64,000 nucleotides of DNA, taken from assembly GCA_964420715.1 (NCBI GenBank), contig CAYQUN010000012.1, positions 4,418-68,417 of the forward strand, given 5' to 3'. This document shows, one piece after another, positions 19,025 to 64,000 of the stretch; position 1 is the stretch's first letter; every line of letters begins with the position of its first letter. Made by a program: the position numbers and the translations under genes. A model generated the notes under the pieces. That model saw only the letters and a program-made list of their open reading frames with translations. It searched no databases and was not told the DNA's origin. This stretch comes from an uncultured Prevotella sp. (GTDB lineage: Bacteria > Bacteroidota > Bacteroidia > Bacteroidales > Bacteroidaceae).

Positions 19025-19073
19025 GCAAAACAGAAATGCCATCGTCTCTATTGACAACGCATTTCTGTTTTGC
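19025..19073. terminator. Hairpin between convergent genes (probable bidirectional terminator)
   Basis: Perfect 15-bp inverted repeat GCAAAACAGAAATGC / GCATTTCTGTTTTGC with a 19-nt loop. Confidence 0.7.
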
Positions 19074-26301: not shown

Positions 26302-26319
26302 AACCAAATATAACACACA

Positions 26320-27483: not shown

Positions 27484-27520
27484 GGAAAAGCTTTATTACA
27501 AGCATTCAACAAAAAAGGGA

Positions 27521-28864: not shown

Positions 28865-28867
28865 ATA

Positions 28868-30046: not shown

Positions 30047-30346
30047 TTCGTCGAATCCGAAACTTGGATAACAATCCCGATAACCCTCAGAAGTTACGCG
30101 GGATTTATTTTTTCCCAAATCATCTTGGCATATCCCTGACCCAAAGTCATACAAAGCATCTTGATATGCGCTTTTTGATGACGTAATCATCCTCCTTTTT
30201 TCTTCGCCACCCGCCATACAGCCCCTATTCCTGTCAAGTCATTTTTACATACAAGAAGATGTCAACCTTGGCGTTTTTCTTTTCCTCTTATCTAAAATAA
30301 GGAAAATTGTCCACAATAGCGAAAAACACCTTAAAGAAACAGCATT

Positions 30347-30413
30347 TTGAGAAGATTGTTACATAAATTGAGAAAATTTTTAAGAGAAAAGCGAAGATAT
30401 AAGCCTAACTTTG
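30347..30413 (+). promoter_or_regulatory. Promoter with operator motif B (21-bp-period direct repeat)
   Basis: TTGAGAAGAT-N11-TTGAGAAAATTTTTAAG-N21-TAACTTTG. Confidence 0.8.
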
Positions 30414-30528
30414 TACAATAATAAATATGTTTTTTAACTCAAATTCGACTATACGCAACAATATCAAAGCTAATTGGCCCGGGCTTTTAAACGGGCAAAA
30501 AATAAATAAAAATAAAACCTACAAAGTT

Positions 30529-31533: not shown

Positions 31534-31544
31534 ACTTCACGGCG

Positions 31545-31577
31545 GCCTCCCTTCCCTATTCTTACCAGGAGGGAGGC
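31545..31577 (+). other. GC-rich intergenic stem-loop upstream of SusC
   Basis: GCCTCCCTTC ... GGAGGGAGGC, 10-bp stem with one G-U pair, no T tract. Confidence 0.55.
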
Positions 31578-31683
31578 GGCCTTCCATTCCACAACCTAAA
31601 CAGATTCCTTCCTAACACGGAATAACCTTCAGTAACGAGAATCTAAATCTATCACACATAATTATTATATATAAGGAAACCGA

Positions 31684-34600: not shown

Positions 34601-34890
34601 TTCCACGCATAACATTCACCAATGACAAGCAGAACCAGGCCAACTCTGACATCTGGTATTTCGACTCTAAATATCTTCGTCTGCGCAACATCGAGTTGGG
34701 CTACACTTTCCGTCATATCAGCTGGCTACCGCAACAATCCAACATCCGGCTCTTTGTCAACGGAATGAACTTGCTCACCATTTCGCCGTTCGATGCCAAC
34801 GACCCCGAAAACACGGGTGGTGGATACGGAGCCTGGATCAAGTATCCTCTGATGAAGGTCGTCAATTTCGGCGCAAAGGTTACATTCTAA
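31684..34890 (+). CDS. susC: SusC-like TonB-dependent transporter 1
   Basis: CarboxypepD-like N-domain, VVVAYGQQKK, IRGQASLNG, KDASATAVYGVRGANGVILVTTKRG, C-terminal F. Confidence 0.97.
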   Translation: MKIRKQSRRLLLLLSLMLLPLAMLAQSKKIEGTVVDENGEPVIGATVKEIGTKNAAVTNLDGKFSIMTSKPGSQLEFSYIGYKTQHFKAAGNMRIALTPESTNLEDVVVVAYGQQKKVTVTGSLAHIGGDDLLKTPTGSLGNAISGKLPGLSTVQYSGLPGADDPNIFIRGQASLNGSNPLVLVDGVERSFTQIDPNEVADITILKDASATAVYGVRGANGVILVTTKRGTAGVTHVTASTTWGIQQPTDFIDMVDSYTYATVFNTARASDGNQPRFSDRVVEHFRTGDQPVLYPSINWIDYIMKNSALQSQHNVSVTGGNDVATYFVSVGMFDQGGLFNTFNTDKNANFHYTRYNYRANLDLNLGKWHKLSLNVGGRVENKRTIGGATSEETIFRYLMDAQPFSGAGIVDGKWVVANPAIIADGSTESVVSGRDGLNTFYGQGYRTTFTNVLNIDLAYTLKMDWLTQGLSFKIKGSYNATYNQVKDRSTGMPTRYMPYLNKAGEIVYQRQGDDWPLGYSENSWPDRDWYAEASFNYQRSFGDHNVGALLLYNQSKTYYPWDANNSEYRSIPKGYVGLVGRVTYDYKHRYMIDGNMGYNGSENFAKGHRYGFFPSVSVGWTASEEPWWKTISPVVSFLKFRYSIGSVGNDNCQGYRFLYLPAAWKIYNGYFNAFNDYAGYNFGTTNTTYLNAAQEYSSASPDVTWETAVKHNYGIDLKFWNDRISLTFDYFTENRKNILINNASMITGPTDQRPSYINYGRVKNHGYELSLTYSDRIGKDFRISVTPSIAYAKNKVVEEAEIKKPDKLVKANSYMGRKLGLKEDTEMQPTWTYYTGQPIGARRGYKFFGFYQEGKTEEEYRNKYGTDIPEQLVSTLKNGDAVYVDIDGDGKITEEYDQLFEGYTDNPELTFSLNLSLTWKNWDFSMLWSGASHVSRNLDGVYRQAFGEQYNSSLLTWVAKNAWTEENANSAKIPRITFTNDKQNQANSDIWYFDSKYLRLRNIELGYTFRHISWLPQQSNIRLFVNGMNLLTISPFDANDPENTGGGYGAWIKYPLMKVVNFGAKVTF

Positions 34891-34924
34891 CAATCAAAAC
34901 AAACAGGTTAGATAAAAGAAAACA

Positions 34925-36883
34925 ATGAAAAAGCATATAAATATTCTCATCGCACTCACTTTGCTGCTCTTGGGCACGGCAAGTTGCACGGACAACCTTG
35001 AGATCGGCGACTCCTTCCTCGACAAGGCGCAAGGCGAAGATGTCAATGAAAACCTGATTTTCTCCAAGAAAGTATATACCGATTATTTGCTTTGGGAATG
35101 CTACGACGGACTCTACTCGCCCTTCAAGGCGTGCTACACCTTGAATTCCGGCATCATGGAATGTCTCTCCGACCTGATGCATTCCGAACTGGGTTGGGAC
35201 GACATCGGCCGCATGTACTACACGGGCAACCTGACTGCCGCCAACGCCAACCCCGGCTGGTGTCAGAGCCGCTTCGCATTCATCACGCAGAACGGACTTG
35301 CCAACACCGACCCCAATGCCAAGAAATCCATTTGGGAATGCGTACGCGACTGTTGGCTTCTTATCGACAACATCGACCGCGTACCCGATATGACAGAAGC
35401 TGAGAAAGCGCGCTACAAGGCTGAGGCGAAAATCATCATCGCCATCAAGTATTTTGACGGCATCCGTCATTTCGGTGGTCTGCCCATCATCGATCATGCG
35501 TTCAAGGGTACCGACCAACTGCAAGAGGGGCGTGCCACCATCGAGCAAACCGTTGACTTTGCCAACAACCTGCTCAACGAGGCCATCGCAGAGCCCAATC
35601 TGCCTTGGAACATTCCCGACAACGAGCTCGCCACCTGGTCTGGACGCATGACCAAGGCTTCGGCCGTGGGCATGAAGGCCAAGCTATGGGACTATGCCGC
35701 CTCTCCCATCTTCAATAATGACAAGCCTTATTGCACGGAGAGTCCGCAGGACGCTGTAGACAAGAGGCAGGTGTGGTATGGCAATTACGACCCGGCGCGT
35801 TGGGACTCCGTCATTGTGGCTTGCAAGCAGTTCTTTGAGATGAACCAGCAGAATGGCAACTACTACCATCTCGTACAGCCCGAGACGCAAGACGAGGACG
35901 GTTTCCGTGCCGCTTTCCGCAAGGCTTACCGCGCACGCGGCAATCACGAGACCCTCGTGGAAGTCCACGACCGTGTCTATATGAAAGACTGGGATCTCCA
36001 GGCGCTCAACGGGTGCATGCCTGCGACCCTCGACTGGATGGAAATGTTCCCATGGGCAGACGGAAAGAACTTCGACGGGCAAAAGTATTATAATCAGGCA
36101 CCTGCCGAAAAGGATATTTTCGAGAACCGCGACCCCAGGCTCTACGAGAGCATGGTCGTTCAGAAGCGCAACTACAAGTACCAAATCAACAATGAGGACA
36201 ATCCCGTGCAGATGTGGGTAGGCGGCGAGTTCAATGCCGACGAGAACAAGAACACGTGGGCAAACAAGCCCTGGGGATTCCCCACCTTCAAATGGGTGCT
36301 TGACGAGGGCGATGTGGACCACGACAACGAAGGCCTGATAGACAAGGATCCCATGTCTGTCAACTACCTGCGCTTGGCCGACATCTATCTCATCTATGCC
36401 GAGGCGCTCACCGAGCGCGGGCAGAATGCCGAAGCGCTGAAGAACATCAACATCGTGCGCCGTCGCGTCGGACTTGGCGATATTGAGAAAATGAATCCGG
36501 AACTCAACCTGACCTCTGACAAGGACGCCCTCATCGACCAGATTATGCGTGAGCGGGCATGCGAGTTGGGAGCCGAGTGTGAGAATCGCTTCCATGACAT
36601 GAACCGCCGGCTGATGGTAAAAGACTTCACCAAGCATTTGCGCGGACTCAACATCTACCGGCTCGACGATCACAACCAGCGTGTTTTGGAGCCTTGGTCC
36701 AAAGGCAGTGGCGACCCCTTCCCCACCAAGTTTGAGTATGAGCCGTTCAACATCGAGGGTGCCAATCCACGCTTCATTTGGGATCATCCCGAGCGCTGGT
36801 CCAACAAGTGGATTCTTGCTCCGCTTCCTCCTGACGAGATCAACAAAAACTATGGACTGACTCAGAACCCGGGATGGAATTAA
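34925..36883 (+). CDS. susD: SusD-like lipoprotein 1
   Basis: Lipobox TASC, YLRLADIYLIYAEAL, RERACEL and TQNPGW. Confidence 0.95.
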   Translation: MKKHINILIALTLLLLGTASCTDNLEIGDSFLDKAQGEDVNENLIFSKKVYTDYLLWECYDGLYSPFKACYTLNSGIMECLSDLMHSELGWDDIGRMYYTGNLTAANANPGWCQSRFAFITQNGLANTDPNAKKSIWECVRDCWLLIDNIDRVPDMTEAEKARYKAEAKIIIAIKYFDGIRHFGGLPIIDHAFKGTDQLQEGRATIEQTVDFANNLLNEAIAEPNLPWNIPDNELATWSGRMTKASAVGMKAKLWDYAASPIFNNDKPYCTESPQDAVDKRQVWYGNYDPARWDSVIVACKQFFEMNQQNGNYYHLVQPETQDEDGFRAAFRKAYRARGNHETLVEVHDRVYMKDWDLQALNGCMPATLDWMEMFPWADGKNFDGQKYYNQAPAEKDIFENRDPRLYESMVVQKRNYKYQINNEDNPVQMWVGGEFNADENKNTWANKPWGFPTFKWVLDEGDVDHDNEGLIDKDPMSVNYLRLADIYLIYAEALTERGQNAEALKNINIVRRRVGLGDIEKMNPELNLTSDKDALIDQIMRERACELGAECENRFHDMNRRLMVKDFTKHLRGLNIYRLDDHNQRVLEPWSKGSGDPFPTKFEYEPFNIEGANPRFIWDHPERWSNKWILAPLPPDEINKNYGLTQNPGWN

Positions 36884-36929
36884 AAATGAAAGCCCGGAAA
36901 CATCTTTTAATTTCCACAGAAACAGCAAT

Positions 36930-39767
36930 ATGAGCAAATATTTCAAAAAGATAAAGAAATGTAGCCGAAAGGGGCTGCGCTGCCTTGGCGCCATGCTCCT
37001 ACTCTCTACCGCACCTGCAAGTGCACAGAGCACCCTCATCGACTACGATTCCACACGTGTGGACCTTGGTTTCGGCGTAGTGCAGCAGAAGTTGCTCTCC
37101 ACCGTCGCGATGTCCACAATCAGTGGCGACGAACTGCGCAAGACATCGGCCTACAACCTCAGGGAGGCTCTCTACGCGCAGCTGCCGGGGCTGACCGTCC
37201 TCAATCACGGCGGATTCGCGGCACGTGGCAAAGACACGCAGATAAGCATACGCGGCGATCAGACTACGGGCGACAAGAACATTTTGATTCTTGTCGACGG
37301 CATCGAGCGCAACATCGACTATATGACCACCGACGAGGTGGAGAGTGTCACCGTTCTCCGTGATGCCGCCGCCGTGGCTCTCTTGGGCTATCAAGGAGTC
37401 AACGGAGCCCTCCTCATTACGACGAAGCGTGGAAAGGCCGGCAAGTTGCGGGTCAATGCCAGCTATGACCACAAGTTCACCTTCGACCCGAAGACCGCAG
37501 ATTTCGTCAGTGCCTACGACTATGCCAACGCGCTTAACAAGGCCCGTGCCAACGACGGGTTGTTGCCGGCCTATAACGATTACGAGCTCAACGCCTTCCG
37601 CTCCGGCCTGGAACCCTATTATTATCCGCATGTCAACTGGAAGGACGAGGCCTTCAAGAGCCTTGGCTCAGAAGACAAGCTCAACCTGGAAGCCAACGGT
37701 GGCAATGACAAGTTGCAATACGAGGTCCTTCTCGGGCTGACCAATGTCAGCGGCCTCTTGGGGCACACCGATGTGAGCGACGACTACTCCGCCCAGCTGA
37801 AGGGCTCGCGCGGCAACATTCTCACCAACATTGATGCCGAGCTCTCCAAGACCACGCATCTCAGGGTGAATGTCGATGCCGGCATCTTCGAGACCAACCA
37901 GCCCAACGATGCCGACGGCAACGAGGTGACGCGCCTGCTCTATGCCGTACCCTCCTCGGCCTTTCCCGTCACCAACGATCCTGACGGCGTCCTCGCCGGC
38001 GTGTGGGGCGGCAACACCACCTATGCGGGCAACAATGTGATGGCCAAGATCATGGCTTCCGGATACATGAAGAGCCACGGCCACATCTTGCAGGGCGACG
38101 TCACCCTGACCCAAAAGCTCGACTTCTGGCTGAAGGGCCTGTCCGTGAGTGCGCGTGTCGGCTACAGCAACTATGAGCAGATCTTCGAAAACAACAGGTT
38201 AGGTTACGAATACGGTTATGAGCGTTACGGCTTCGACGCCAACGGCATTCCCACGTCGCTCACCAGCTACAAGGCCGGCGACAAGACGAGCCGCTTGGCC
38301 TTTGCCTATGGCATCAACGAGCACCGCCGCAGTTCCTATCTCGCTTTAAAGGCCAACTATGCCACCAAGTTCCGTGCTGACGACAACTTCATCGCCGCAC
38401 TCATCTGGCATCAGAAGAACACGACGCCCAACGGGCAATACAACACCTTCAACCGGATGGACTGGCAGGGCTACCTGCACTACGACTTGAAGCAGCGTTA
38501 CATTGCCGACCTCGTCCTGGCGCTCAACGGGTCCAACCGCAGCTATCCCAACAAGTGGGCCTTCGCACCTACGCTCTCGCTAGGCTACATCCTCAAGAAC
38601 GCACCCGAAGCCAAGGTACTCAACCTGGCCAAATTCCGTCTTTCGGGCGGCATACAGCATTCCGACTATGTTCCCGTCAACGGCCTTTGGTTGGAGAACT
38701 ATGGCGGTGGTGGCGGCGACTACTATTTCGGTATCGGAACGGGCTCGCAGAACTGGGGTACGTTCATCAGCTATCTGCCCAATGACGACCTAAGCCACGA
38801 GACCGCCTACAAGTTCAATCTGGGTGGTGATTTCCGCCTGGCGCGCCAGCTCGACCTCAACGTCGACCTTTACTATCAGCTCCGCGACAACATCATCCTT
38901 TCCGACGCGGGTTTCAACTCCGCCGTGATGGGTCTTCCCGCTTCCTACATGAACTATGGTCGTGTTGCAAGCTATGGTGTCGAGTTTTCCACCAACTGGG
39001 TGCGCACCTTCCACAACGGACTGAGCACCCACATCGGCGGCAACTTCTCCTGGGGGCGCAACAACATCCGCCGCACCATTGAGAGCAAGGCCTACGACTA
39101 TCTGAGCAGCGTCGGCGGCCGAGTCAATCAGGCGTGGGGCTTGCAGGTCATCGGGTTCTTCAAGGACCAGGACGACATCGACAACTCTCCCGAGCAGAAT
39201 TTCGACAACACCAAGCCGGGCGACTTCAAGTACAAGGACCAGAACAACGACAATGTCATCAACGAGGACGATGTCGTCAAACTGGGCTATGACACCTCCG
39301 TACCAGAGATCAACTTCGCCATCAATCTGGGGCTCAAGTACAAGAACGTCGGTTTCGACGTCCTGTTCCAGGGAGCCTCCAACTACACGCAGTATCTGGG
39401 TACGGCCGGCGTATGGGTGCCCATCGTCGATGGAGCCAACCTGACCCAAGACTACTACGACAAATGCTGGGACAACAGCAACAGTCCCAAGTATCCGCGC
39501 CTTACTTCCCGTACGAACAACAACAACTATCGCGCCAACAGCACGTGGTACAAGGACATCACCTTCTTGAAGTTGCGCAGCGCCCGTCTTTACTACGACC
39601 TGCCCAAGACCTTCATCCAGAAGCTCAGCCTGGTGCAAGCCCAGTTGTATGTCAAGGGCGAGAATTTGCTGACCATCAGCAACTGCGACGTCATGGATCC
39701 GGAGAACATCGGAACCAACTATCCCGCCCTCCGCGGCATTGACGTCGGTATAAGCGTAAAGTTCTAA
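36930..39767 (+). CDS. susC: SusC-like TonB-dependent transporter 2 (no N-terminal carboxypeptidase-like domain)
   Basis: VLRDAAAVALLG..GVNGALLITTKRG and GDFKYKDQNNDNVI; signal peptide followed directly by DLGFG and the plug; C-terminal F. Confidence 0.95.
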   Translation: MSKYFKKIKKCSRKGLRCLGAMLLLSTAPASAQSTLIDYDSTRVDLGFGVVQQKLLSTVAMSTISGDELRKTSAYNLREALYAQLPGLTVLNHGGFAARGKDTQISIRGDQTTGDKNILILVDGIERNIDYMTTDEVESVTVLRDAAAVALLGYQGVNGALLITTKRGKAGKLRVNASYDHKFTFDPKTADFVSAYDYANALNKARANDGLLPAYNDYELNAFRSGLEPYYYPHVNWKDEAFKSLGSEDKLNLEANGGNDKLQYEVLLGLTNVSGLLGHTDVSDDYSAQLKGSRGNILTNIDAELSKTTHLRVNVDAGIFETNQPNDADGNEVTRLLYAVPSSAFPVTNDPDGVLAGVWGGNTTYAGNNVMAKIMASGYMKSHGHILQGDVTLTQKLDFWLKGLSVSARVGYSNYEQIFENNRLGYEYGYERYGFDANGIPTSLTSYKAGDKTSRLAFAYGINEHRRSSYLALKANYATKFRADDNFIAALIWHQKNTTPNGQYNTFNRMDWQGYLHYDLKQRYIADLVLALNGSNRSYPNKWAFAPTLSLGYILKNAPEAKVLNLAKFRLSGGIQHSDYVPVNGLWLENYGGGGGDYYFGIGTGSQNWGTFISYLPNDDLSHETAYKFNLGGDFRLARQLDLNVDLYYQLRDNIILSDAGFNSAVMGLPASYMNYGRVASYGVEFSTNWVRTFHNGLSTHIGGNFSWGRNNIRRTIESKAYDYLSSVGGRVNQAWGLQVIGFFKDQDDIDNSPEQNFDNTKPGDFKYKDQNNDNVINEDDVVKLGYDTSVPEINFAINLGLKYKNVGFDVLFQGASNYTQYLGTAGVWVPIVDGANLTQDYYDKCWDNSNSPKYPRLTSRTNNNNYRANSTWYKDITFLKLRSARLYYDLPKTFIQKLSLVQAQLYVKGENLLTISNCDVMDPENIGTNYPALRGIDVGISVKF

Positions 39768-39790
39768 CAATTTCCAAAGAAGCAATAACG

Positions 39791-41488
39791 ATGAAATTGA
39801 AATATATTTTTTCTGCCGTCCTCCTCGCTGCCACTGCCACCAGTTGTGTCGATTTGGGCTACACCGAGGTGACGACACGCGACGAGCAATGGGTCTACGA
39901 CAGTCCGCTCTACGGTGTCCAGCAACTCATGACGAGTGTCTATGCCTACGTCCCCAACGGATTCACCCGCAATTACGAAGGCGGAAGCGGGGCCACTCTT
40001 GCCGCCGCCACCGACGAGGCCGACTGCGCGCTGAGCAATTCGTCCGTCCACCGTTTCTATAATGGTGGCTGGAGCGCCGTCAACCCGCTCGGCTACACGT
40101 GGACCAACAGCTACAAGGCCATTGCCGAGGCCAACAACCTGTTGGAGAAGCTCGACAAGATTGACATCAGCGGCTATGCCAACAACACCGACTACGAGGC
40201 CATGAAGGCCAAGTTCTCGCTCTTCGAGTACGAGGCCCGCTTCTTGCGTTGCTACTTCTATTACGAACTGGTACGTGCCTACGACAATGTTCCCTTCACC
40301 TTGAAGACGCTCTCTGCGGACGAGGCCAACAGCATCGAGCAGACCGACGGTGTCAAGATTCTCGACTGGATAAGCCAGGAGCTCGACGACATCGCCCCCG
40401 AGCTGCCCATCACCTACTCCACGGAGCTCAATCCCGACATTGGCCGCGCCACACGCCCGATGTGCCTGGCGCTCAAGGCCCGTGTCAAGCTTCTCAAGGC
40501 CTCACCGCTTTTTAACACCGAGAACAACAAGCAGTTGTGGCTCGACGCCGCCCAGGCAAGCTACGACCTGTTGTCGCGTGCGTCGGCCTGGGGCATCACC
40601 CTGGGCAACTACGCCAACATCTGGGGCCCACAAAACGGCGATGGCACCGAGGTCATCATGGCCAGCAAGCGGGGCCGCCTGAACAGTTGGGAGCAATACA
40701 ACTATCCCATCGGTGTTGAGAACGGGCAAGGCGGCATGTGTCCGACGCAGTCGCTCGTCGACGCCTACGAGTACACCGACGGGACGGGCGAGACCTTCGG
40801 CGACCGTCATGGTGCGGGCTCGGTTGACATCACCCAAACCGACCCCTACGACGGCCTCGACCCGCGCTTCGCGCTCACCGTCGTCAAGAACGGCGACTAC
40901 TGGCCCAACTACAACCTCTCGCCCATCGAGACCTTCAATGGCGGCAAGAACGCGGCACCCCTTCACAACGCCACCACCACGGGCTATTACCTGAAGAAGT
41001 ATTGCGACCCCAACGTCAACATCTCGACCAACGACGCCACCACCACGCCCCATGCGTGGATCATCATGAGGCTGGGCGAGTTCTATCTGGATTACGCCGA
41101 GGCCATGTACGAGTATTATGGCGACGCCGAGGCCAAGGGCAGCTTCACCCTTTCGGCCAACGACGCCATCAACGCGCTCCTCAACCGCGAAGACGTCAAG
41201 ATGCCCAACTGGAGTGGCAACCCCGCCAACTGGCTTTCACGCTACAAGCGTGAGCGCCTCGTCGAGATGGCCTTCGAGGACCAGCGTTTCTGGGATGTCC
41301 GGCGGTGGAAGGACGGGCAGCAGCTCGCCTCCATCCAGGTGGCCAATCTCCGCAAGGACGCCTCGGGCGACGTCATCCTCACGCGTGCCACCGTCAACCG
41401 GAGTTGGAGCGACAAGTATTATTTCTTCCCCATCCCTTACGACGAAATCAACAAGAACCACAACCTCGTGCAGAATCCGGGATGGTAA
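39791..41488 (+). CDS. susD: SusD-like lipoprotein 2
   Basis: Lipobox ATSC, MRLGEFYLDYAEA, RERLVEMAFEDQRFWDVRRW and QNPGW. Confidence 0.95.
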   Translation: MKLKYIFSAVLLAATATSCVDLGYTEVTTRDEQWVYDSPLYGVQQLMTSVYAYVPNGFTRNYEGGSGATLAAATDEADCALSNSSVHRFYNGGWSAVNPLGYTWTNSYKAIAEANNLLEKLDKIDISGYANNTDYEAMKAKFSLFEYEARFLRCYFYYELVRAYDNVPFTLKTLSADEANSIEQTDGVKILDWISQELDDIAPELPITYSTELNPDIGRATRPMCLALKARVKLLKASPLFNTENNKQLWLDAAQASYDLLSRASAWGITLGNYANIWGPQNGDGTEVIMASKRGRLNSWEQYNYPIGVENGQGGMCPTQSLVDAYEYTDGTGETFGDRHGAGSVDITQTDPYDGLDPRFALTVVKNGDYWPNYNLSPIETFNGGKNAAPLHNATTTGYYLKKYCDPNVNISTNDATTTPHAWIIMRLGEFYLDYAEAMYEYYGDAEAKGSFTLSANDAINALLNREDVKMPNWSGNPANWLSRYKRERLVEMAFEDQRFWDVRRWKDGQQLASIQVANLRKDASGDVILTRATVNRSWSDKYYFFPIPYDEINKNHNLVQNPGW

Positions 41489-41523
41489 ACAAGAGTATAT
41501 TCACAAAACAACATCGCAGCTTT

Positions 41524-43038
41524 ATGAAGAATATGAAATATTGGGGCATGGCGCTGCTTGGCATATTGGCCCTGGCCTCCTGTTCCGACGACAAGGAGAG
41601 CGCAAGCCAGACCTTGTCGGTAGCGGCCTTCTCGCCCACAATCATCATGGACAACCAGTCGATGCAGGTCACGGGAACCGATATGGGCCAGGTGACCGAG
41701 GCTGAGTTTCCCGGGGGTGCCGTCACCACGGACATCACCCCCCTTGACGCAAGGACGCTTTACCTGAAGGCGCCGGCCGGCATCAGCACCACCGACGGGC
41801 CCATCATCTTGCGCACCTCCGACGGCCAGCAGGCCGAGAGCCGCCAGCTGATGCACTTGGCGCAGCCGCAGTTCCAGTCTTACGAGTTCACCAGCAGTGC
41901 CGGCGCGCTCACCAATTCCAACATCAACATCTATGGAACCGACTTGCTGCCCGTGAGCAAGATCATCTTCGCCCTCGACGGCGACACCGCCACGGTCGGC
42001 GGTGTCGACATGATGCGCAAGTCCAACGAGGCCATCAAGGTCACCATTCCCGACAAGGCGCCCACCGGCAAGGGGGTCAGCGTGAAGCTCGGCTTCCAGA
42101 ACGGCACCACCATGGACCTGCCCAGCCTCGACATCGACAAGGGTCTCGGCGACGGGCACTGGGAGCGCCACATGCAGACCATCTTCTCCGGTCCGTCCGT
42201 CTATCTGGGCAACTACGCGCGCACCGTCGACATCTCGTCCTCGCGCCTGCAATACATCGAGGAGGGCGACACCATCCGCGTGCTGATGCAGTACATGCTT
42301 GCCGGATGCGAGTACACGCTCTACGACGGTGTCAGCGGCGAGTCTCTCGGAGCCGGCTATGAGCACAAGAGCATTTCCAGCGAGGAGAGGACGCAGGGCT
42401 ATTATGACATCATCGTGACCAAGGACGTCTTGAAGGAGCTGCAAAACAACGGCCTGAAGATTGGAGGCCAGCGCTATGGCGTGGCCAAGGTGCAACTCTT
42501 CTCGCGCATGTGGGTTTCCGACGTCCACATCGACCTGCGCGATCCCATCACCGACGAGACCGTCATGGTGCTCAACTTCGAGAAGACCGACTCGCACGAT
42601 CCGGCCACGATGGATGACAACTGGACGGTGCCGGGAGCCAACACATGGCCCAAGGACGACGACGGAAACACCTTCGTCTACGTGCAGCAGTACATTCCCG
42701 ACGGATGGATGTTCAACTGCAACCACCTCTCCGTGGCCCCCATCGACCACATCGAGAACTACTACATCAAGTTCGACTGCCGCATCGACCAGGGTGTCGA
42801 AGGTGCCTCCAACGCCGAGATGCAGTATTGCATCGGCAACACGTGGATGTGGGTCGGCAAGGGATTCCTCCCCGAGACCACCAACGGCCAGTGGATTACG
42901 GTCACGCGCGCCATCTCCGACATTTCCGACCTCTCGGGAACGCTCAAGATTGACGAGGGCACGTCCATCGGATTCTACGGCAACCACATCCCCGCCGGTG
43001 TCGCCATAGACAACGTCCGCTTCGATCCCAAGTTCTAA
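41524..43038 (+). CDS. Surface glycan-binding lipoprotein (IPT/TIG domains plus C-terminal beta-sandwiches)
   Basis: Lipobox LASC then SDDKE; two IPT-like repeats; position after susD. Confidence 0.8.
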   Translation: MKNMKYWGMALLGILALASCSDDKESASQTLSVAAFSPTIIMDNQSMQVTGTDMGQVTEAEFPGGAVTTDITPLDARTLYLKAPAGISTTDGPIILRTSDGQQAESRQLMHLAQPQFQSYEFTSSAGALTNSNINIYGTDLLPVSKIIFALDGDTATVGGVDMMRKSNEAIKVTIPDKAPTGKGVSVKLGFQNGTTMDLPSLDIDKGLGDGHWERHMQTIFSGPSVYLGNYARTVDISSSRLQYIEEGDTIRVLMQYMLAGCEYTLYDGVSGESLGAGYEHKSISSEERTQGYYDIIVTKDVLKELQNNGLKIGGQRYGVAKVQLFSRMWVSDVHIDLRDPITDETVMVLNFEKTDSHDPATMDDNWTVPGANTWPKDDDGNTFVYVQQYIPDGWMFNCNHLSVAPIDHIENYYIKFDCRIDQGVEGASNAEMQYCIGNTWMWVGKGFLPETTNGQWITVTRAISDISDLSGTLKIDEGTSIGFYGNHIPAGVAIDNVRFDPKF

Positions 43039-43068
43039 TCCACCGGCGGAACAAGTGAAATAAAAAAA

Positions 43069-44487
43069 ATGACTATTGAAATGAACAACAAGCATATCAT
43101 TCATCACCTGCTGTCATCGGCACTCATCCTCCTGGGTGCCTTTGCAGCGGCAGGGTGCAGCTACGACGACAACCAGGCGTTCTCGGTCACGGCACCCAGG
43201 CTCATCGCCTCAACGCCCGCCGACGGCACCACCGACCTGGGTGCCGGCACGCTCGTCGTCACCCTCGCCTACGACCAGAAGATTCATGCCGACTCGGCGC
43301 AGCTCGCCCTCGTCACGGCCGGCGACGCCACCATTGACAGCATCAAGACGCGCATCTCGAGCATCATCGTCTATCTCTCCGGGCTCAATCTTGACAAGGA
43401 GTACAAGGTCGACGTGCCCGCCGGTGTCGTCGAGGGGCCCTCGGGGGTGAGTGCCGACGAGGCCTCCGTCTCCTTCAGCACCATCCGGCTGAACAACGAC
43501 GGCCTGAAGCTATGCACGCCCAACGCCAGCAACGAGGCCGTCAGGCTCTTCAACTATCTCATCGACGGACGCGGCCTGCGCACCCTCTCCTCAACGATGG
43601 CTTGCGTCAACTGGAACACCAACGAGGCCGAATGGGTCCATAGCCACACGGGCAAGTATCCGGCCATCAACTGCTTCGACTACATCCACTTCCGCGACGC
43701 GTTCGTCGACTACGGCAACACGAAGGTGGCCGAGGACTGGTGGAACAACGGAGGCATCGTGGCGGCCATGTGGCACTGGCAGGTGCCGGCCAACGGCGGG
43801 GGCTACAGCTACACGCCGGGCAAGGGGGCCGACCAGACCTCGTTTGACGTTCGCAAGATTGACGATCCCAACTCGGAGGAGTACAAGCAGATCGTGGCCG
43901 ACCTCGACCAGGTGGCGGGCTATCTGAAGCTCTTGCAACAGAAGCACATCCCCGTCATCTGGCGACCGCTCCACGAGGCCGCCGGCAACTACTATCACCC
44001 CGAGTGGAACGGCACGGCGTGGTTCTGGTGGGGCTATTACGGACCGGAGTATTTCAAGAAGCTATGGCACTTGATGTACGACCGCTTCGTCAATGTCAAC
44101 GGCCTGGACAACCTGATTTGGGTCTGGGTGTACGAGGGGCATGACGAATGGTATCCGGGCGACGAGTATGTCGACGTCGTCGGATGCGACGACTACAACC
44201 AGAAGAACCCCACGTCGTTTGCCAACCAGTATGACGCCATGATACGCTACAAGAACAAGCTGGCCGCCCTCACCGAGTGTGGCAGCGTGGCCAAGATCAG
44301 CGACCAGTGGAAGGCCGGCGCGCGCTGGGCCTGGTTCATGCCGTGGTACGACTACGACCGCACCAACAACGTGTCGGGGGCGGCCTTCCAGAGCACCGAC
44401 CACCTGCACGCCAACATCGACTGGTGGCGCGACGCCTTGCAGCAGGACTACGTCGTCACGCGCGACGAGCTGCCCTCCTTCAAGTAA
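43069..44487 (+). CDS. Surface lipoprotein GH26 beta-mannanase with an N-terminal Ig-like (Big_5-like) domain
   Basis: Lipobox AAGC; STPADGTTD Ig start; WRPLHEAAG..WFWWG and ALTECG motifs. Confidence 0.92.
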   Translation: MTIEMNNKHIIHHLLSSALILLGAFAAAGCSYDDNQAFSVTAPRLIASTPADGTTDLGAGTLVVTLAYDQKIHADSAQLALVTAGDATIDSIKTRISSIIVYLSGLNLDKEYKVDVPAGVVEGPSGVSADEASVSFSTIRLNNDGLKLCTPNASNEAVRLFNYLIDGRGLRTLSSTMACVNWNTNEAEWVHSHTGKYPAINCFDYIHFRDAFVDYGNTKVAEDWWNNGGIVAAMWHWQVPANGGGYSYTPGKGADQTSFDVRKIDDPNSEEYKQIVADLDQVAGYLKLLQQKHIPVIWRPLHEAAGNYYHPEWNGTAWFWWGYYGPEYFKKLWHLMYDRFVNVNGLDNLIWVWVYEGHDEWYPGDEYVDVVGCDDYNQKNPTSFANQYDAMIRYKNKLAALTECGSVAKISDQWKAGARWAWFMPWYDYDRTNNVSGAAFQSTDHLHANIDWWRDALQQDYVVTRDELPSFK

Positions 44488-49304: not shown

Positions 49305-49405
49305 TACGGACACGACATCCCGAGGGTGCGCGTGTCCGTAACGGCCAAAAAGCAAAAGGGCCATACCCCAAACCAGCACATCTGCCAAGGTATGGCCCCT
49401 TTTTT
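49305..49405 (+). terminator. Double hairpin / intrinsic terminator after the peptide gene
   Basis: TACGGACACG/CGTGTCCGTA (49305-49340), then GGGCCATACC/GGTATGGCCC (49358-49398) plus a T run. Confidence 0.75.
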
Positions 49406-49482
49406 AAACCGTTTTACCGTGTTTTTGGACAAATACACCTTTATCTAACACAATATTACCCGACATTTTAGAAACTAAACCG

Positions 49483-49490
49483 TAATTTTG
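49483..49490 (+). promoter_or_regulatory. -7 promoter box for the GH2-GH43 PUL
   Basis: TAATTTTG 29 nt before the ATG at 49520; motifs A and B are absent upstream. Confidence 0.65.
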
Positions 49491-55666: not shown

Positions 55667-55697
55667 TCTGTATCTTCAAGAACTAACCGTATGAAAC

Positions 55698-60673: not shown

Positions 60674-61648
60674 ATGATGAGAAAAACATTTTTTTTCCTG
60701 ATAGCGGCTTTGGTTCTGCTGGGAATGACGGCGTGTTCCGACGAGAATGAGCCGGCGCGCACTCCGGTTGCCTCTGCCACAATCAGCCAGACGGATTTGG
60801 AAGTAAACCAAAGTATGCAGATTACGTTCAACGGCGTTGCCGACCAAGTCGTGGTCTATACGGGAGATGAAGGACACAACTTCGCCCTGCGCGACTCCAG
60901 TGATACGGGGTTCCCCGTCAACAAGGGGCTCTTCACTTACTCTTACTCCCTGCCCGGCAATTATCATGTAGTGGTCGTGGCGTCCACCTACGACACGTAC
61001 CTGGGCGACGGGTTGCGGCAAGACACGACAGCCTTTGACGTCAAGGTGACTGATGATGTCACGGAGCTGGAGAACGTCTACTCCTCCATCACTCCGAACA
61101 TCTATTATGCCGAGCTCTTGGACAACAACGCCTGGGTGCTCCGGCTGCCTACCAAGCAGGTCTATAACAACCGTGACGTGGTGCTTCGCGCCAACCGGCA
61201 GCGCTTGAGCTTTGACATTGCCTCCGGTGCGACAAACATCTATATAGACGGAGAGTTGTGGCAACAGAGAAACTATTATGACCTTACCCAAACGCACGAC
61301 ATCCATGTGGTGGCCAATTCCGGGGCGACTCGTGACTACAAGCTCTACACCCTGATCTATCCGGAACTGGAATCGGTATCCGTCAATGGCGTGAAGGGCA
61401 CGCTGAAGCGCGACCCCTTTGACCAAAGCGCGCAGACATACAGCTTTAAGTTGCCGGCCGGATCTGACCTCGCCAATGCAACCATAACCTTCTCTGCCAA
61501 CGAAGACGCGAGGTTCCTGGTGAATGGGCAAGAGGTGGCATCTGGCTCGACGGTGGACCTCACAAGCGGAAACATAACCCTCGTGACAACATCACCGGAG
61601 AACAGCGAAGTCTATGCGACATCACATCTGACTTTCTTAACTGAATGA
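60674..61648 (+). CDS. Surface lipoprotein with PKD/Ig-like domains (probable glycan-binding protein)
   Basis: Lipobox MTAC then SDENE; beta-rich; position after susD. Confidence 0.7.
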   Translation: MMRKTFFFLIAALVLLGMTACSDENEPARTPVASATISQTDLEVNQSMQITFNGVADQVVVYTGDEGHNFALRDSSDTGFPVNKGLFTYSYSLPGNYHVVVVASTYDTYLGDGLRQDTTAFDVKVTDDVTELENVYSSITPNIYYAELLDNNAWVLRLPTKQVYNNRDVVLRANRQRLSFDIASGATNIYIDGELWQQRNYYDLTQTHDIHVVANSGATRDYKLYTLIYPELESVSVNGVKGTLKRDPFDQSAQTYSFKLPAGSDLANATITFSANEDARFLVNGQEVASGSTVDLTSGNITLVTTSPENSEVYATSHLTFLTE

Positions 61649-63621
61649 TACTATTTATGAAAAAGGCGACACTGATTTTCCTTTTCAACTTTTGCATAGC
61701 GCTGGCAGCCTTGGCTGCCAGCCATGTGCCGTATCAGGGGTCCCGCATATTTTGGGATACATCAACGCTGAAGACCGTCTTCGCAAGCGGTGGCTATGCC
61801 AGAATCGCCCAGCTGCAAGACGGAAGGCTTATGGCGTGTGTTGAGAACAACGGCATAGACATCTCCTTTAGTAGCAACAAGGGGAATACATGGTCGGCTC
61901 CTGTGAAGATTGTGAGCAACGGCAACATCCCGGAGTGCGTGCCAGACCTGCTGCAAACTGCTGACGGGACCATCATCGTAGCCTATAATCCACGCCCCAA
62001 CGAGCCCTACTCGGCTGACCGGCGCTTCGGAATCCATCTTAAACGCAGCACTGACAATGGAAGGACCTGGAGTGACGACATTCCTGTTTTCGATGCCGAC
62101 TTCAATTATTGGAATGGATGCTGGGAACCCTCGCTGCTACAGCTGCCCAACGGCGAGCTCCAACTTTATTTCGCGGACGAGTCGGAATTCCCCTATAGCG
62201 ACGAGCAGCAGATCTCCGTATGCCGTTCTTATGACGATGGTGTCAATTGGACCGCGCCGGCACGCGTCTCCTTCCAAGAAGGCAACGGCGCGCGCGACGG
62301 AATGCCATCGGCCGTCATTCTGAACAATGGGAATATTGCCGTAGCCATTGAGAACAGCGGGTGGCCCGGCGTGGGCGACTTCATTCCCACGATCGTGACG
62401 AGTACGCTCCAGCAGAACTGGAACCCATGGGTGGGATATCCAAGCAATCGGCGATGGAAGGCTTTCGACCCGAGCTATGTAAGCTCTAACGTAAAGGGGG
62501 GCGCGCCCTATATACGCCGGCTGCCATGGGGAGAGACGGTGCTCTCGCATCAATCAACAAGCTTGAACAGCTATGGCAAGTTCGACATGCTGGTCTATGT
62601 CGGCGACGAGAACGCCCAAAACTTCAAGGCCATGAGCAAGCCTTTCTCCTCAAGCGCGCAAAACAGCTACCTGTGGAACTCCCTATGCGTGATTGATACG
62701 GGCGTCGTCGTTGCCGTTGGCAACATTGACGGAGGCCAGGTCGTCATGCAAAAGGGTTATGCGGTAAGGACGTTGCAGGCGCCCTTCGCTTCTCCCACAA
62801 TCGACGGGAGGCAGACGAGTGCCGATGGTTATTACAAGGGGAACGCCAGGCAATTGATATTAGGACGCGAGCGCGGCACGAACTTCACGGCCGATTTCGC
62901 TTATGACGAAGACTCGCTTTATTTTACTTCGAGGGTGTCTGATATCGACCAGGTAACAAACCGTGGATCAAACAGCGACGGCGTGACTCTTCTCATTGAC
63001 ACGAGGAACGCCTCTTCCGACTACCGCATCGCCGAGGGTATCTACCGGCTGCTTTTCCTCGCCAACGGGCAAATGCGCGTGGCCAGAGGAAACGGTTCAA
63101 GCTCATGGCAATGGAGCGGACTAAGCCAGGACACACTTGGCACGCACTATGTGAAGGCGGGGACGACACGATACTATATTGTCGAGGCCGCCATCCCATG
63201 GTCGGCCTTGGGCCTCACCCAGGCCGAGATACCCAACGGCACGCACATGCGTGTGAACGTGATGCTGCAAAACAACAACAAGGACAACAGCAGCATGCCT
63301 GTCGGCTATGAGATGCTCCCTGATTCGAAGCGTGACGAGTCTTGGTCGTGGATGGACTTCTACCTGCAACCCCACGACGCCACGGGCGTGAGAACCGTCA
63401 AGCCTGGCAAGGGCGGCGCCGTCGCCGTACACAACAATGGCCGAGACATCACCATTGAGGGAGGCGACGTCAACACGACGGAAGTCTACACGGCCGCAGG
63501 GTTGCTCGTCGGAAAGTATAATGGGAGGCGCTTCACCCTGCCAGCGTCAATCCGGGGCATCGTCCTGATACGGATAAAGTTGTCGGACAATAGCACCGTA
63601 ACTCAAAAAATATTGCTGTAA
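61645..63621 (+). CDS. BNR/Asp-box beta-propeller hydrolase (GH93-like) plus CBM9-like domain plus T9SS CTD
   Basis: Asp-boxes SSNKGNTW, STDNGRTW and SYDDGVNW; GYAR, WEP, RDGMP, AIE and APY motifs; CBM9-like PTIDG...YIVEAAIPW; TGV...QKILL CTD. Confidence 0.7.
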   Translation: MILFMKKATLIFLFNFCIALAALAASHVPYQGSRIFWDTSTLKTVFASGGYARIAQLQDGRLMACVENNGIDISFSSNKGNTWSAPVKIVSNGNIPECVPDLLQTADGTIIVAYNPRPNEPYSADRRFGIHLKRSTDNGRTWSDDIPVFDADFNYWNGCWEPSLLQLPNGELQLYFADESEFPYSDEQQISVCRSYDDGVNWTAPARVSFQEGNGARDGMPSAVILNNGNIAVAIENSGWPGVGDFIPTIVTSTLQQNWNPWVGYPSNRRWKAFDPSYVSSNVKGGAPYIRRLPWGETVLSHQSTSLNSYGKFDMLVYVGDENAQNFKAMSKPFSSSAQNSYLWNSLCVIDTGVVVAVGNIDGGQVVMQKGYAVRTLQAPFASPTIDGRQTSADGYYKGNARQLILGRERGTNFTADFAYDEDSLYFTSRVSDIDQVTNRGSNSDGVTLLIDTRNASSDYRIAEGIYRLLFLANGQMRVARGNGSSSWQWSGLSQDTLGTHYVKAGTTRYYIVEAAIPWSALGLTQAEIPNGTHMRVNVMLQNNNKDNSSMPVGYEMLPDSKRDESWSWMDFYLQPHDATGVRTVKPGKGGAVAVHNNGRDITIEGGDVNTTEVYTAAGLLVGKYNGRRFTLPASIRGIVLIRIKLSDNSTVTQKILL

Positions 63622-63631
63622 ACCTCATCGC

Positions 63632-63743
63632 ATAGCTAACCCGTTTGCGCAAATCTTTTAAAAAAGATTTGTTTTTCTCATTTTTTTTTGCGAATTTTGT
63701 ATTCGTCTATGCATAAACAATATTTCGCAAACGGGTTAGCTAT
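63632..63743. repeat. 18-bp perfect inverted repeat pair flanking a 76-bp spacer
   Basis: ATAGCTAACCCGTTTGCG (63632-63649) and CGCAAACGGGTTAGCTAT (63726-63743). Confidence 0.9.
63668..63699 (+). promoter_or_regulatory. Promoter-like element inside the inverted repeat
   Basis: TTTG-N20-GAATTTTG, one mismatch to the -33 TTTG / -7 TAnnTTTG consensus, pointing at the HTCS gene. Confidence 0.55.
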
Positions 63744-63744
63744 C

Positions 63745-64000
63745 ATGAAGAGGGGGTATTGCTCCATTTTTGTCGTTATCGCGTCGTTCCTACTGGGTGG
63801 AACGGCGGCAGATGCCCGTGACTTCTTTTTCCAGCACATCAACAGCCTTTCCGGACTGCCACACCAGCAGGTGGAAGCCATAGCGCAAGACGGCGAGGGA
63901 TATATGTGGTTTGGCACACGGAACGGACTCGCACGGTATGACGGAGCCGACATGAAGACCTTTTACCATGCCAGCGACAACCCCCACTCCTTGGGCCACA
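63745..64000 (+). CDS. Hybrid two-component sensor/regulator, N-terminal part (Reg_prop propeller)
   Basis: Not in the ORF track. Manual translation MKRGYCSIFVVIASFLLGG...SGLPHQQVEAIAQDGEGYMWFGTRNGLARYDG; runs off the window. Confidence 0.8.
   Translation, partial: MKRGYCSIFVVIASFLLGGTAADARDFFFQHINSLSGLPHQQVEAIAQDGEGYMWFGTRNGLARYDGADMKTFYHASDNPHSLGH

What the first reader, a model, noticed from the sequence alone, without database searches (positions are those of the whole stretch)
63632..63747. Candidate invertible promoter or RNA switch controlling the PUL's hybrid two-component regulator
Seen: a perfect 18-bp inverted repeat (ATAGCTAACCCGTTTGCG at 63632-63649; CGCAAACGGGTTAGCTAT at 63726-63743) brackets 76 bp containing a TTTG-N20-GAATTTTG promoter. 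The left arm starts 10 nt after the upstream stop codon and the right arm ends 1 nt before the HTCS ATG. Established: Bacteroidales phase-vary promoters by inversion between short inverted repeats, often using distant recombinases; no recombinase is in this window. Inference 1: inversion switches the regulator, and so the whole PUL, on or off. Inference 2: read-through PUL mRNA folds an 18-bp stem that hides the HTCS start, while the internal promoter's transcript lacks the left arm and is translated, which insulates the regulator from positive feedback.
Basis: partly seen in the sequence, partly recalled or inferred. Interest (0 to 1): 0.72.

Follow-up and report, generated by a model that had tools for sequence, protein, structure and literature searches.

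The report
Palindrome-flanked spacer before a PUL regulator
A perfect 18-bp inverted repeat really does bracket the short gap in front of a gut Prevotella-like bacterium's sugar-sensing regulator gene. In 17 metagenome assemblies it was never flipped, so it most likely acts as an RNA stem that hides the regulator's start codon in read-through transcripts, not as a DNA switch.

Summary
ATAGCTAACCCGTTTGCG (63632-63649) and its exact reverse complement (63726-63743) bracket 76 bp. About 0.0003 such repeats are expected per window, and none appeared in 100 shuffles.

- an AU-rich hairpin followed by a T-run, which looks like a weak terminator
- an in-frame upstream ATG at 63709
- an outer helix that pairs across the annotated ATG at 63745

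Inversion found no support. All 17 metagenome assemblies of this species show one orientation, the 64-kb window has no recombinase, and the 18-mer occurs nowhere else. Only consensus contigs were available, so rare flipping is not excluded.

A multicopy MITE is ruled out, because the element is single copy. The repeat is specific to this lineage: orthologous loci have spacers of -4 to 236 nt and lack the arms.

In read-through RNA the ancestral start codon is the least accessible of 20 gene starts (0.16 against 0.38-0.82). My best reading, at confidence about 0.4, is a fixed terminator/promoter cassette with IS10-like fold-back masking of the regulator's start. Two caveats weaken it: ATG is ACG in 5 of 17 samples, and the ATG at 63709 stays accessible.

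Interest is moderate to low.

The parts
61645..63621 (+). Last PUL structural gene before the regulator (BNR_2 + CBM9 protein, 658 aa). Its start overlaps the preceding 324-aa gene by 4 nt.
   Evidence: ORF list. Pfam BNR_2 and CBM9_1. The SusC-SusD-324aa-BNR-HTCS order is conserved in orthologous loci.
63623..63630 (+). 5' half of the outer helix extension. It pairs with 63746-63753 across the AUG.
   Evidence: MFE pair list. Natural SNPs 63623 C>T and 63746 T>C both keep or strengthen pairing.
63632..63649 (+). Left arm of the perfect 18-bp inverted repeat (extends to 63652 with one mismatch).
63650..63689 (+). AU-rich 10-bp hairpin (63650-63671) plus a T-rich run (63672-63689). This is a weak intrinsic-terminator-like element for the upstream operon.
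   Evidence: Inverted repeat I5. Hairpin dG -8.5 kcal/mol. Not called by the consensus terminator scan, which requires 3 or more G-C pairs.
63668..63699 (+). Bacteroidetes-type promoter-like motif TTTG-N20-GAATTTTG pointing at the HTCS gene.
   Evidence: Consensus TAnnTTTG / TTTG as quoted in PMC7366714. Relaxed match only.
63709..63711 (+). In-frame upstream ATG, 9 nt after the -7-like box. It is the only start available in strains with ACG at 63745, and a gene caller used it there.
   Evidence: reading frame open from 63640. L014 gene call at the equivalent position. Unpaired probability 0.52.
63726..63743 (+). Right arm of the inverted repeat (extends from 63723 with one mismatch).
63745..64000 (+). 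5' end of the hybrid two-component system (HTCS) gene. The ATG at 63745 aligns with the M-[RK]-[RK] start of all orthologs. The gene runs off the window.
   Evidence: Pfam Reg_prop. Ortholog N-termini. Full domain set in orthologs.

Best explanation
This is a fixed, lineage-specific 112-bp palindrome-bounded cassette. It fills the gap between the last PUL gene and the HTCS regulator gene in one uncultured Prevotella/Segatella-like gut species. It most likely works in RNA, not by flipping DNA.

Proposed mechanism:
1. Transcription of the PUL operon meets a weak AU-rich hairpin plus U-run just after the left arm.
2. RNA that reads through contains both arms and folds into a 17-18-bp stem. Seven more pairs extend the stem across the AUG, so the ancestral HTCS start at 63745 is buried.
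3. A promoter-like motif inside the cassette would start transcripts near 63703-63709. These lack the left arm, so the start region is open.
4. The net effect is that translation of the regulator is uncoupled from read-through of the strongly induced PUL operon. This is the logic of IS10 'fold-back inhibition'.

Shown:
- the repeat and its statistical significance
- its invariant orientation in 17 assemblies
- single-copy status and lineage specificity
- the predicted fold and the predicted loss of start-site accessibility

Inferred:
- that read-through transcripts exist
- that the internal motif is an active promoter
- that the stem lowers translation
- that any of this is under selection
For: - The repeat is real and far from chance.
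- The read-through RNA folds to -53.4 kcal/mol against -31.9 +/- 3.7 for shuffles (z = -5.8).
- The 18 nt before the AUG have an unpaired probability near 0, and the U and G of the AUG are paired.
- Start-site accessibility is 0.16, the lowest of 20 gene starts in the window (0.38-0.82). In a transcript starting at 63706 the same region is largely open.
- The hairpin plus T-run and the -33/-7-like motif sit between the arms in the right order.
- Relatives at 68-75% protein identity carry TAACTTTG immediately before the HTCS ATG (6 nt before it in L007; the L005/L006 contigs end before the ATG). An own promoter at this junction is therefore the norm for this group.
- The 4 natural substitutions and 1 indel in 63622-63754 all spare the fold. 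Two turn G.U into Watson-Crick pairs, one turns C-G into U.G, one lies in a loop and one is unpaired.
- No evidence was found for the DNA-level alternatives.
Against: - No transcript data exist, so the TSS, termination and read-through are all unverified.
- The promoter match is relaxed, and about half of such matches in the window are inside genes.
- The hairpin is weak (-8.5 kcal/mol). A clear GC-rich terminator of the same organism at about 49360-49405 looks quite different.
- The in-frame ATG at 63709 lies in the multiloop and is accessible (0.52), so masking would be leaky.
- In 5 of 17 samples the masked ATG is ACG.
- The arms are absent from every orthologous locus. Two orthologs have overlapping genes, so insulation is not a general need.
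- Strain variation has no statistical power. 69% of possible transitions would preserve pairing, and the G.U enrichment (nominal P = 0.013) is a post hoc observation.
Confidence: 0.4

Rival explanations
1. Invertible promoter (inverton). A recombinase encoded elsewhere flips the 76-bp core between the 18-bp arms.
- In the orientation seen here, the terminator-like element and promoter face the HTCS gene.
- When flipped, the promoter points back into the BNR gene and the T-run no longer follows the hairpin. The HTCS would then depend on read-through from the PUL operon.
For: - A perfect inverted repeat flanks a promoter-like motif in a Bacteroidales genome.
- Master invertases acting on distant sites are documented in B. 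fragilis, and some invertons sit about 99% in one orientation (PMC4747536). Uniform assemblies therefore do not exclude inversion.
- The in-silico inverted form behaves as described.
- Two-component systems are among the functions enriched downstream of predicted invertons (PMC11602134).
Against: - 17 of 17 assemblies and 3 strain contigs show one orientation, with no joints or loose ends.
- There is no recombinase in the 64 kb.
- The 18-mer is unique in the window, in GTDB species genomes and in IMG/VR, so no shared recombination motif was found.
- The spacing is only 76 bp between arms, or 94 bp centre to centre. This is short for synapsis, and Bacteroidetes invertons are reported as the longest.
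- The right arm abuts the ATG and lies inside the ORF when 63709 is the start.
- The base rate is low. PhaseFinder's locate step finds 1,997 inverted repeats in B. thetaiotaomicron, 569 of them near promoters (PMC10994844). That is far more than the number of invertons I recall being proven (background knowledge, not checked here).
Confidence: 0.17
2. A mutational relic without selected function. The arms were created in one step, either by insertion of a small TIR-bounded element into a TA in an originally very short spacer, or by a replication template switch that copied one arm from the other strand. They persist because the event is recent.
For: - The junction is very plastic among orthologs, with spacers of -4, -4, 20, 56, 109 and 236 nt. 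One spacer is filled with a 22-nt palindromic tandem array.
- The cassette almost exactly fills the spacer and is flanked by TA...TA. A 108-bp element with 15-bp TIRs and a TA duplication, of RUP/Correia-like size, is therefore formally possible.
- The arms occur only in this species.
- SNP density in the arms (1 in 36) is no lower than in the flanking genes (about 2-3%).
Against: - The element is single copy in four metagenomes that hold the genome at 16-28x. No copy turned up in GTDB, IMG/VR or PLSDB, so no mobile family or parent IS is known.
- Whatever its origin, an 18-bp stem next to a start codon will form in any RNA that contains both arms, so complete neutrality is unlikely if read-through occurs.
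- All strain variants spare the predicted fold.
Confidence: 0.3
3. Paired protein-binding sites. The two 18-bp arms are 94 bp apart centre to centre, about 9 helical turns. They would be bound by a dimeric or tetrameric regulator that loops out and represses the promoter between them. The HTCS's own AraC-type output domain, which uses ~17-bp half-sites, is one candidate.
For: - The spacing is close to an integral number of helical turns (arithmetic coordinates).
- Orthologous HTCS proteins carry HTH_AraC/HTH_18 domains.
- A post hoc motif, TAAMCCGTWW, occurs in both arms and twice upstream of the first PUL gene at 49405 and 49476.
Against: - The motif was derived after seeing those sites.
- A more objective search with the 12-nt arm core and up to 2 mismatches finds 7 other matches, near expectation (4.4), and none in a PUL promoter.
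- Shared 8- and 9-mers are at chance level.
- The arms are not conserved in orthologs that keep the same HTCS.
Confidence: 0.05

Closest known systems
Bacteroidales invertible promoters (Mpi-, Tsr19-, Tsr0667-type invertons; PhaseFinder catalogues)
   Same: Short inverted repeats flank a sigma-ABfr-type promoter-like motif upstream of a gene in a Bacteroidales genome. The recombinase could be distant (PMC4747536).
   Different: - Only one orientation was seen in 17 assemblies.
- There is no recombinase in 64 kb.
- The repeat sequence is unique rather than shared with other loci.
- The segment is only 112 bp long and abuts the start codon.
- The target is a cytoplasmic-membrane regulator, not a surface structure.
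IS10/Tn10 'fold-back inhibition' of transposase translation in read-through transcripts (Davis, Simons & Kleckner 1985; recalled from memory, and no text on it was retrieved here)
   Same: Sequence upstream of the gene's own transcription start pairs with the translation-initiation region. Only transcripts that enter from outside are masked, and the native transcript lacks the 5' arm.
   Different: - Here the protected gene is a PUL sensor/regulator downstream of its own regulon, not a transposase.
- The organism does not rely on Shine-Dalgarno pairing.
- An accessible in-frame upstream AUG exists.
- Nothing has been tested experimentally.
Promoter- or terminator-bearing MITEs such as Neisseria Correia elements and pneumococcal RUP (background knowledge)
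   Same: About 100-150 bp in size, bounded by perfect terminal inverted repeats, and possibly flanked by TA. Located between genes and co-transcribed into a long RNA hairpin that could be an RNase III substrate.
   Different: Single copy in the genome and in all searched collections. No parent transposase is known and the target-site duplication is unproven.
Compact terminator-promoter intergenic modules with an intrinsic terminator
   Same: A hairpin plus T-run directly after the upstream stop is followed by a promoter for the next gene.
   Different: The hairpin is AU-rich and weak. The whole module is enclosed by an additional long-range 18-bp stem that ordinary modules lack.

Membership tests
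Invertible promoter (inverton) | Inverted repeats flank a segment that carries an outward-reading promoter | tested here: met
   18-bp perfect arms. TTTG-N20-GAATTTTG between them, pointing at the HTCS gene. The promoter is a relaxed-consensus match only.
Invertible promoter (inverton) | Both orientations exist in natural populations | tested here: inconclusive
   17 of 17 metagenome assemblies and 3 strain contigs show the reference orientation only, with no joints or loose ends. These are consensus contigs that drop minority forms, and no raw reads were available.
Invertible promoter (inverton) | A cognate site-specific recombinase nearby, or a repeat motif shared with other invertons of the genome | tested here: not met
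   No recombinase or integrase domain in any ORF of 200 aa or more in the window. The 18-mer with up to 3 mismatches is found only at the two arms. The rest of the genome could not be searched.
MITE (Correia/RUP-like) | Terminal inverted repeats with a target-site duplication | tested here: inconclusive
   TIRs are present. TA...TA flanks are compatible with a TA duplication, but they are part of the palindrome and cannot be told apart from it.
MITE (Correia/RUP-like) | Multiple dispersed copies, or similarity to the ends of an IS | tested here: not met
   One contig per metagenome matches the element at 80% likeness or better. No paired hits in GTDB species genomes, none in IMG/VR, and only chance AT-rich hits in PLSDB.
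Fold-back (cis-masking) control of translation | The 5' arm lies upstream of the gene's own TSS and the 3' arm covers the translation-initiation region | tested here: inconclusive
   The geometry fits if the -7-like box at 63692-63699 is the promoter. The TSS is unmapped because no RNA runs were found.
Fold-back (cis-masking) control of translation | The start region is predicted to be occluded only in the long transcript | tested here: met
   Unpaired probability is near 0 for 63727-63742 in read-through RNA, against mostly 0.3-0.8 in a transcript from 63706. Accessibility is 0.16, against 0.38-0.82 for 19 other starts.
Fold-back (cis-masking) control of translation | Conservation or covariation of the pairing among relatives | tested here: inconclusive
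   The arms are absent from orthologs. Within the species, 3 of 3 SNPs at paired positions preserve pairing (P about 0.15), and 2 of them convert G.U to Watson-Crick (nominal P = 0.013, post hoc).
Intrinsic terminator | A stable hairpin immediately followed by a U-run | tested here: inconclusive
   A 10-11-bp AU-rich hairpin (dG -8.5) plus UUUUUCUCAUUUUUUUUU. It fails the scan's requirement of 3 G-C pairs. No 3'-end data exist.
Known structured RNA family (Rfam 15) | Match at or above a family's gathering score | tested here: not met
   The best hits score 10-25 bits against gathering scores of 52-290, with E of 2 or more.

The most novel reading that the evidence does not exclude
An unusually small (112-bp) inverton that flips a combined terminator/promoter cassette in front of a PUL's hybrid two-component sensor. 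In the orientation seen here, the regulator would have insulated expression from its own promoter. In the flipped orientation, it would be coupled to read-through from the operon. The result would be phase-variable wiring of a whole glycan-utilisation locus by a recombinase encoded elsewhere.
Probability: 0.15. Interest if true: 0.7.

Novelty: new variant of a known kind. Interest (0 to 1): 0.35.

Why it matters
PUL operons are induced by orders of magnitude, while their HTCS sensors are thought to be kept at low, steady levels. How a sensor gene placed directly downstream of its own regulon, in the same orientation, avoids runaway positive feedback is rarely addressed.

If the stem masks the regulator's start in read-through RNA, it would be a simple and testable insulation device in a phylum that does not use Shine-Dalgarno-based initiation. 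It would also be a natural design rule for synthetic circuits in Bacteroidota.

If the segment inverts instead, phase variation would extend from surface structures to a nutrient-sensing regulator.

If it is only a mutational scar, the locus still shows how fast this junction turns over: among orthologs the spacer ranges from overlapping genes to 236 nt.

Tried and rejected
- **Multicopy MITE: rejected.** Laying whole metagenomes on the element at 80% likeness or better gave one contig per run. The 18-mer gave only three single-arm chance hits in GTDB species genomes, one of them inside a coding region. IMG/VR gave none. PLSDB gave only chance hits with E of 1 or more.
- **Known RNA family: rejected.** Nothing came near a gathering score.
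- **HTCS operator shared with PUL promoters: not supported.** TAAMCCGTWW looked enriched but was derived post hoc. The 12-nt core with up to 2 mismatches and the shared 8/9-mers are at chance level and do not fall in PUL promoters.
- **Homology of the spacer with orthologous spacers: unresolved.** The MAFFT alignment was unreliable, so insertion and in-situ origin cannot be told apart.
- **A conserved 'repeat brackets the HTCS start' architecture in orthologs: not supported.** L007 has an 11-nt, 10/11 inverted repeat around its -7 box and ATG. However, HTCS start accessibility in orthologs (0.40-0.58) is unremarkable.
- **Selection test on strain SNPs: no power**.
- **RNA-seq evidence: none.** No run was available.
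- **Look-ups of the window's own BNR protein: failed**. The 324-aa neighbour worked.
- **Inverton literature:** repeat motifs and size tables could not be retrieved. Jiang et al. 2019 is not held, and the supplements of PMC11892184 contain no matching sequence.

Full report
**1. What is in the sequence.**

- The upstream gene (61645-63621) ends with TAA at 63619-63621.
- After 10 nt comes ATAGCTAACCCGTTTGCG (63632-63649).
- Its perfect reverse complement lies at 63726-63743.
- One nucleotide later is the ATG at 63745.

The repeat finder extends the pair to 21 nt with one mismatch. With up to three mismatches the 18-mer occurs only at these two places in the window. A perfect 18-bp inverted repeat with a gap of 300 nt or less is expected 2.8e-4 times in 64 kb. 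None arose in 100 dinucleotide shuffles, and it is the longest perfect inverted repeat in the window.

**2.

- A perfect 10-bp AU-rich hairpin (CAAATCTTTT AA AAAAGATTTG, 63650-63671) follows the left arm directly. It runs into TTTTTCTCATTTTTTTTT and is terminator-like but weak (-8.5 kcal/mol). The consensus scan did not call it.
- The 3' half of that hairpin supplies the TTTG 'minus 33' of the TTTG-N20-GAATTTTG motif (63668-63699).
- Nine nucleotides after the -7-like box lies an ATG (63709) in frame with the HTCS ORF. No stop intervenes, because the frame is open from 63640.
- Outside the arms, 63623-63630 pairs with 63746-63753. The predicted helix therefore includes the U and G of the AUG at 63745.

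**3. Context.**

The window comes from a Prevotella/Segatella-like bacterium. Its PPi-phosphofructokinase is 87-88% identical to Segatella and Prevotella proteins, and coding G+C is about 55%. The species is known only from gut metagenomes.

The locus is a PUL:
- GH2, GH43 and an unknown 588-aa protein
- SusC, SusD and a 324-aa lipoprotein-like gene
- a BNR_2/CBM9 protein
- the HTCS, of which only 85 codons lie in the window

The SusC-SusD-324aa-BNR-HTCS order is kept in every ortholog retrieved. No recombinase or integrase domain is present in any sizeable ORF of the 64 kb.

**4. Is it an inverton?**

I laid the assembled contigs of 17 public metagenome runs on the region.
- Every run carries the reference orientation at the junctions it covers. 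There are no strand-change joints, loose ends or partly fitting contigs.
- Three strain contigs fetched as sequence agree.
- The 18-mer is not reused anywhere. GTDB species genomes gave three single-arm chance hits and IMG/VR gave none.

The segment is short, with 76 bp between the arms and 94 bp centre to centre. Published surveys put most invertons under 300 bases and Bacteroidetes invertons among the longest (PMC11602134).

An inverted repeat plus a promoter is a weak predictor on its own. PhaseFinder's locate step lists 1,997 inverted repeats in B. thetaiotaomicron, 569 of them near promoters (PMC10994844).

Two points argue the other way. Contigs hide minority forms, and a proven B. fragilis inverton sits about 99% in one orientation in culture, controlled by an invertase that also acts on a distant site (PMC4747536). 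No raw-read runs were offered.

Inversion is therefore unsupported but not excluded. I put it at about 0.17.

**5. Is it a mobile element?**

The cassette nearly fills the spacer and is flanked by TA...TA. A 108-bp element with 15-bp TIRs and a TA duplication is therefore formally possible. However, it is single copy in four metagenomes that contain the genome at 16-28x, and nothing related was found elsewhere. A multicopy MITE is rejected. A one-off insertion or a template-switch origin cannot be tested.

**6. Comparative evidence.**

Eight orthologous loci were retrieved (BNR protein 52-75% identical). Their spacers between the BNR gene and the HTCS vary widely.

| Locus | Spacer |
|---|---|
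| L004, L008 | -4 nt (ATGA overlap) |
| L012 | 20 nt |
| L009, L010 | 56 nt |
| L007 | 109 nt |
| L011 | 236 nt, with 4.4 copies of a 22-nt palindromic unit |

None of the loci, including L005 and L006 (whose contigs end inside the spacer), contains the arms.

All orthologous HTCS proteins begin M-[RK]-[RK]-... at the position that aligns with the ATG at 63745, so that is the ancestral start.

The 68-75% relatives have TAACTTTG just upstream of the HTCS start. It lies 6 nt before the ATG in L007, and the L005/L006 contigs end right after it. This implies an own promoter and a nearly leaderless mRNA at this junction. In B. thetaiotaomicron, 5' UTRs shorter than 10 nt are rare (3.7%) but include sensor kinases (PMC7366714). 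In the window the -7-like box stands 9 nt before the ATG at 63709, which is the same geometry.

The repeat is therefore a recent, lineage-specific addition to a fast-evolving junction.

**7. RNA-level consequences.**

- A read-through RNA (63610-63790) folds to -53.4 kcal/mol, against -31.9 +/- 3.7 for shuffles (z = -5.8). The arms form the main stem around a multiloop that holds the AU hairpin.
- In a 400-nt read-through context, the 16 nt of the right arm from 63727 to 63742 have an unpaired probability near 0. In a transcript starting at 63706 the same nucleotides are mostly 0.3-0.8 unpaired.
- Mean accessibility of -20..+10 around the start is 0.16 for 63745, the lowest of 20 gene starts in the window (0.38-0.82). 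It is 0.52 for 63709, and 0.40-0.58 for the HTCS starts of orthologs.

It matches the logic of IS10 fold-back inhibition, which I cite from memory because I could not retrieve a text on it.

**8. Strain variation.**

Variants seen in 63622-63754 across samples:

| Variant | Predicted structural context |
|---|---|
| 63623 C>T | C-G becomes U.G in the outer helix |
| 63649 G>A | In the MFE this base closes the AU hairpin; G.U becomes A-U |
| 63660 deletion of one A | Hairpin loop |
| 63721 T>C | Unpaired |
| 63746 T>C | G.U becomes G-C in the outer helix; also turns ATG into ACG |

All of them spare the predicted fold (-57.2 to -59.7 against -58.0 kcal/mol for the three variant forms refolded within 63600-63800; 63623 C>T alone costs 2.3 kcal/mol). 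The test has little power, however.
- 69% of all possible transitions would preserve pairing.
- 62% change the MFE by 0.5 kcal/mol or less.
- The hit on two of only three G.U pairs has a nominal P of 0.013, but it is a post hoc observation.

The ACG allele occurs in 5 of 17 samples, and the ORF remains open for at least 539 codons in such a strain (L014). In those strains the HTCS must start at 63709, which is where the gene caller placed it. That start is not masked. This is the most serious objection to a general masking role.

**9. Verdict.**

The repeat is real and non-random.

The explanation I rank first, at about 0.4, is a fixed terminator/promoter cassette. Its arms form a stem in read-through RNA that hides the ancestral start of the regulator, while transcripts from the internal promoter escape.

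The other readings rank as follows:
- a functionless recent mutational relic, about 0.3
- an inverton, about 0.17
- a looping operator pair, about 0.05; this was tested weakly and is not supported

None of these is proven. The deciding data are raw-read orientation counts, TSS and 3'-end mapping, and compensatory-mutation reporters. All lie outside what these tools could supply.

On novelty, this is at most a new variant of known kinds (cis-masking stems, or invertons). Interest is moderate to low unless inversion is demonstrated.

Noticed in passing
window 63745-63747 (SNP at 63746): The annotated HTCS start codon is polymorphic. ATG is ACG in 5 of 17 metagenome samples (X1, X4, X9, part of X26, X27) and in strain contig L014. 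The ORF stays open there, and a gene caller used the in-frame ATG that corresponds to 63709. The same change turns a predicted G.U pair into G-C.
   Followed up: partly
window 63595-63641 (left edge of the element): In all four low-depth runs (X9, X23, X24, X25) contigs break within about 45 nt of the left arm's outer edge, while the right junction is always continuous. The asymmetry argues against inversion heterogeneity. The cause is unknown; the common 63597 C>T SNP or a coverage bias are possibilities.
   Followed up: partly
L011 5020-5115: The orthologous BNR-HTCS spacer of a 55%-identity relative is 236 nt long. It holds 4.4 tandem copies of a 22-nt palindromic unit (TCTTGTAACAGGATTACAAGGG), which amounts to an array of small hairpins at the same junction.
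   Followed up: no
L004 6914-6917 and L008 4887-4890: In two relatives (about 60% identity) the BNR gene and the HTCS gene overlap by ATGA with no spacer. The regulator must therefore be co-transcribed with the PUL genes there.
   Followed up: partly
L005 2290-2320 and L006 2184-2213: Two contigs from different species (75% and 73% orthologs, apparently from the same study) both end at an identical 30-mer, GGGAAACATTAGAAAATCACTAACTTTGCT, which contains a TAACTTTG -7 box. This is probably an assembly-graph convergence on a sequence shared by co-occurring relatives.
   Followed up: no
L007 7042-7081: An 11-nt inverted repeat (GGAAAAACATT / AAAGTTTTTCC, 10 of 11) brackets the -7 box and the ATG of the orthologous HTCS in a 68% relative. 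It is of a size that chance could give, and start-site accessibility there is unremarkable (0.45).
   Followed up: partly
window 49405-49414 and 49476-49485: Two direct copies of TAAACCGT(TT/AA) lie upstream of the first PUL gene (GH2). They resemble the arm core TAACCCGTTT, and CTAACCGT lies upstream of susC at 55683. This was noticed post hoc, and a less biased search showed no enrichment.
   Followed up: yes
window 49360-49405: A classical GC-rich intrinsic terminator (GGGCCATACC...GGTATGGCCC followed by TTTTTT) lies after the 1286-aa LRR_5 (BspA-like) gene. It shows what a strong terminator looks like in this organism.
   Followed up: no
window 19025-19073 and 14513-14814: These are the only other perfect inverted repeats of 14 bp or more in the window. 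One is 15 bp with a 19-nt loop, between the ORFs ending at 18951 and 19191 and terminator-like. The other is a 14-bp pair 274 nt apart inside the 948-aa ORF.
   Followed up: no
window 25222-44487: A second, mannan-type PUL lies on the same strand. It contains GH26, GH130, an MFS transporter, an epimerase, two SusC/SusD pairs, an SGBP-like protein and a second GH26. Three sizeable ORFs in the window have no Pfam match (5867-7495, 7526-8491, 30427-31533).
   Followed up: no
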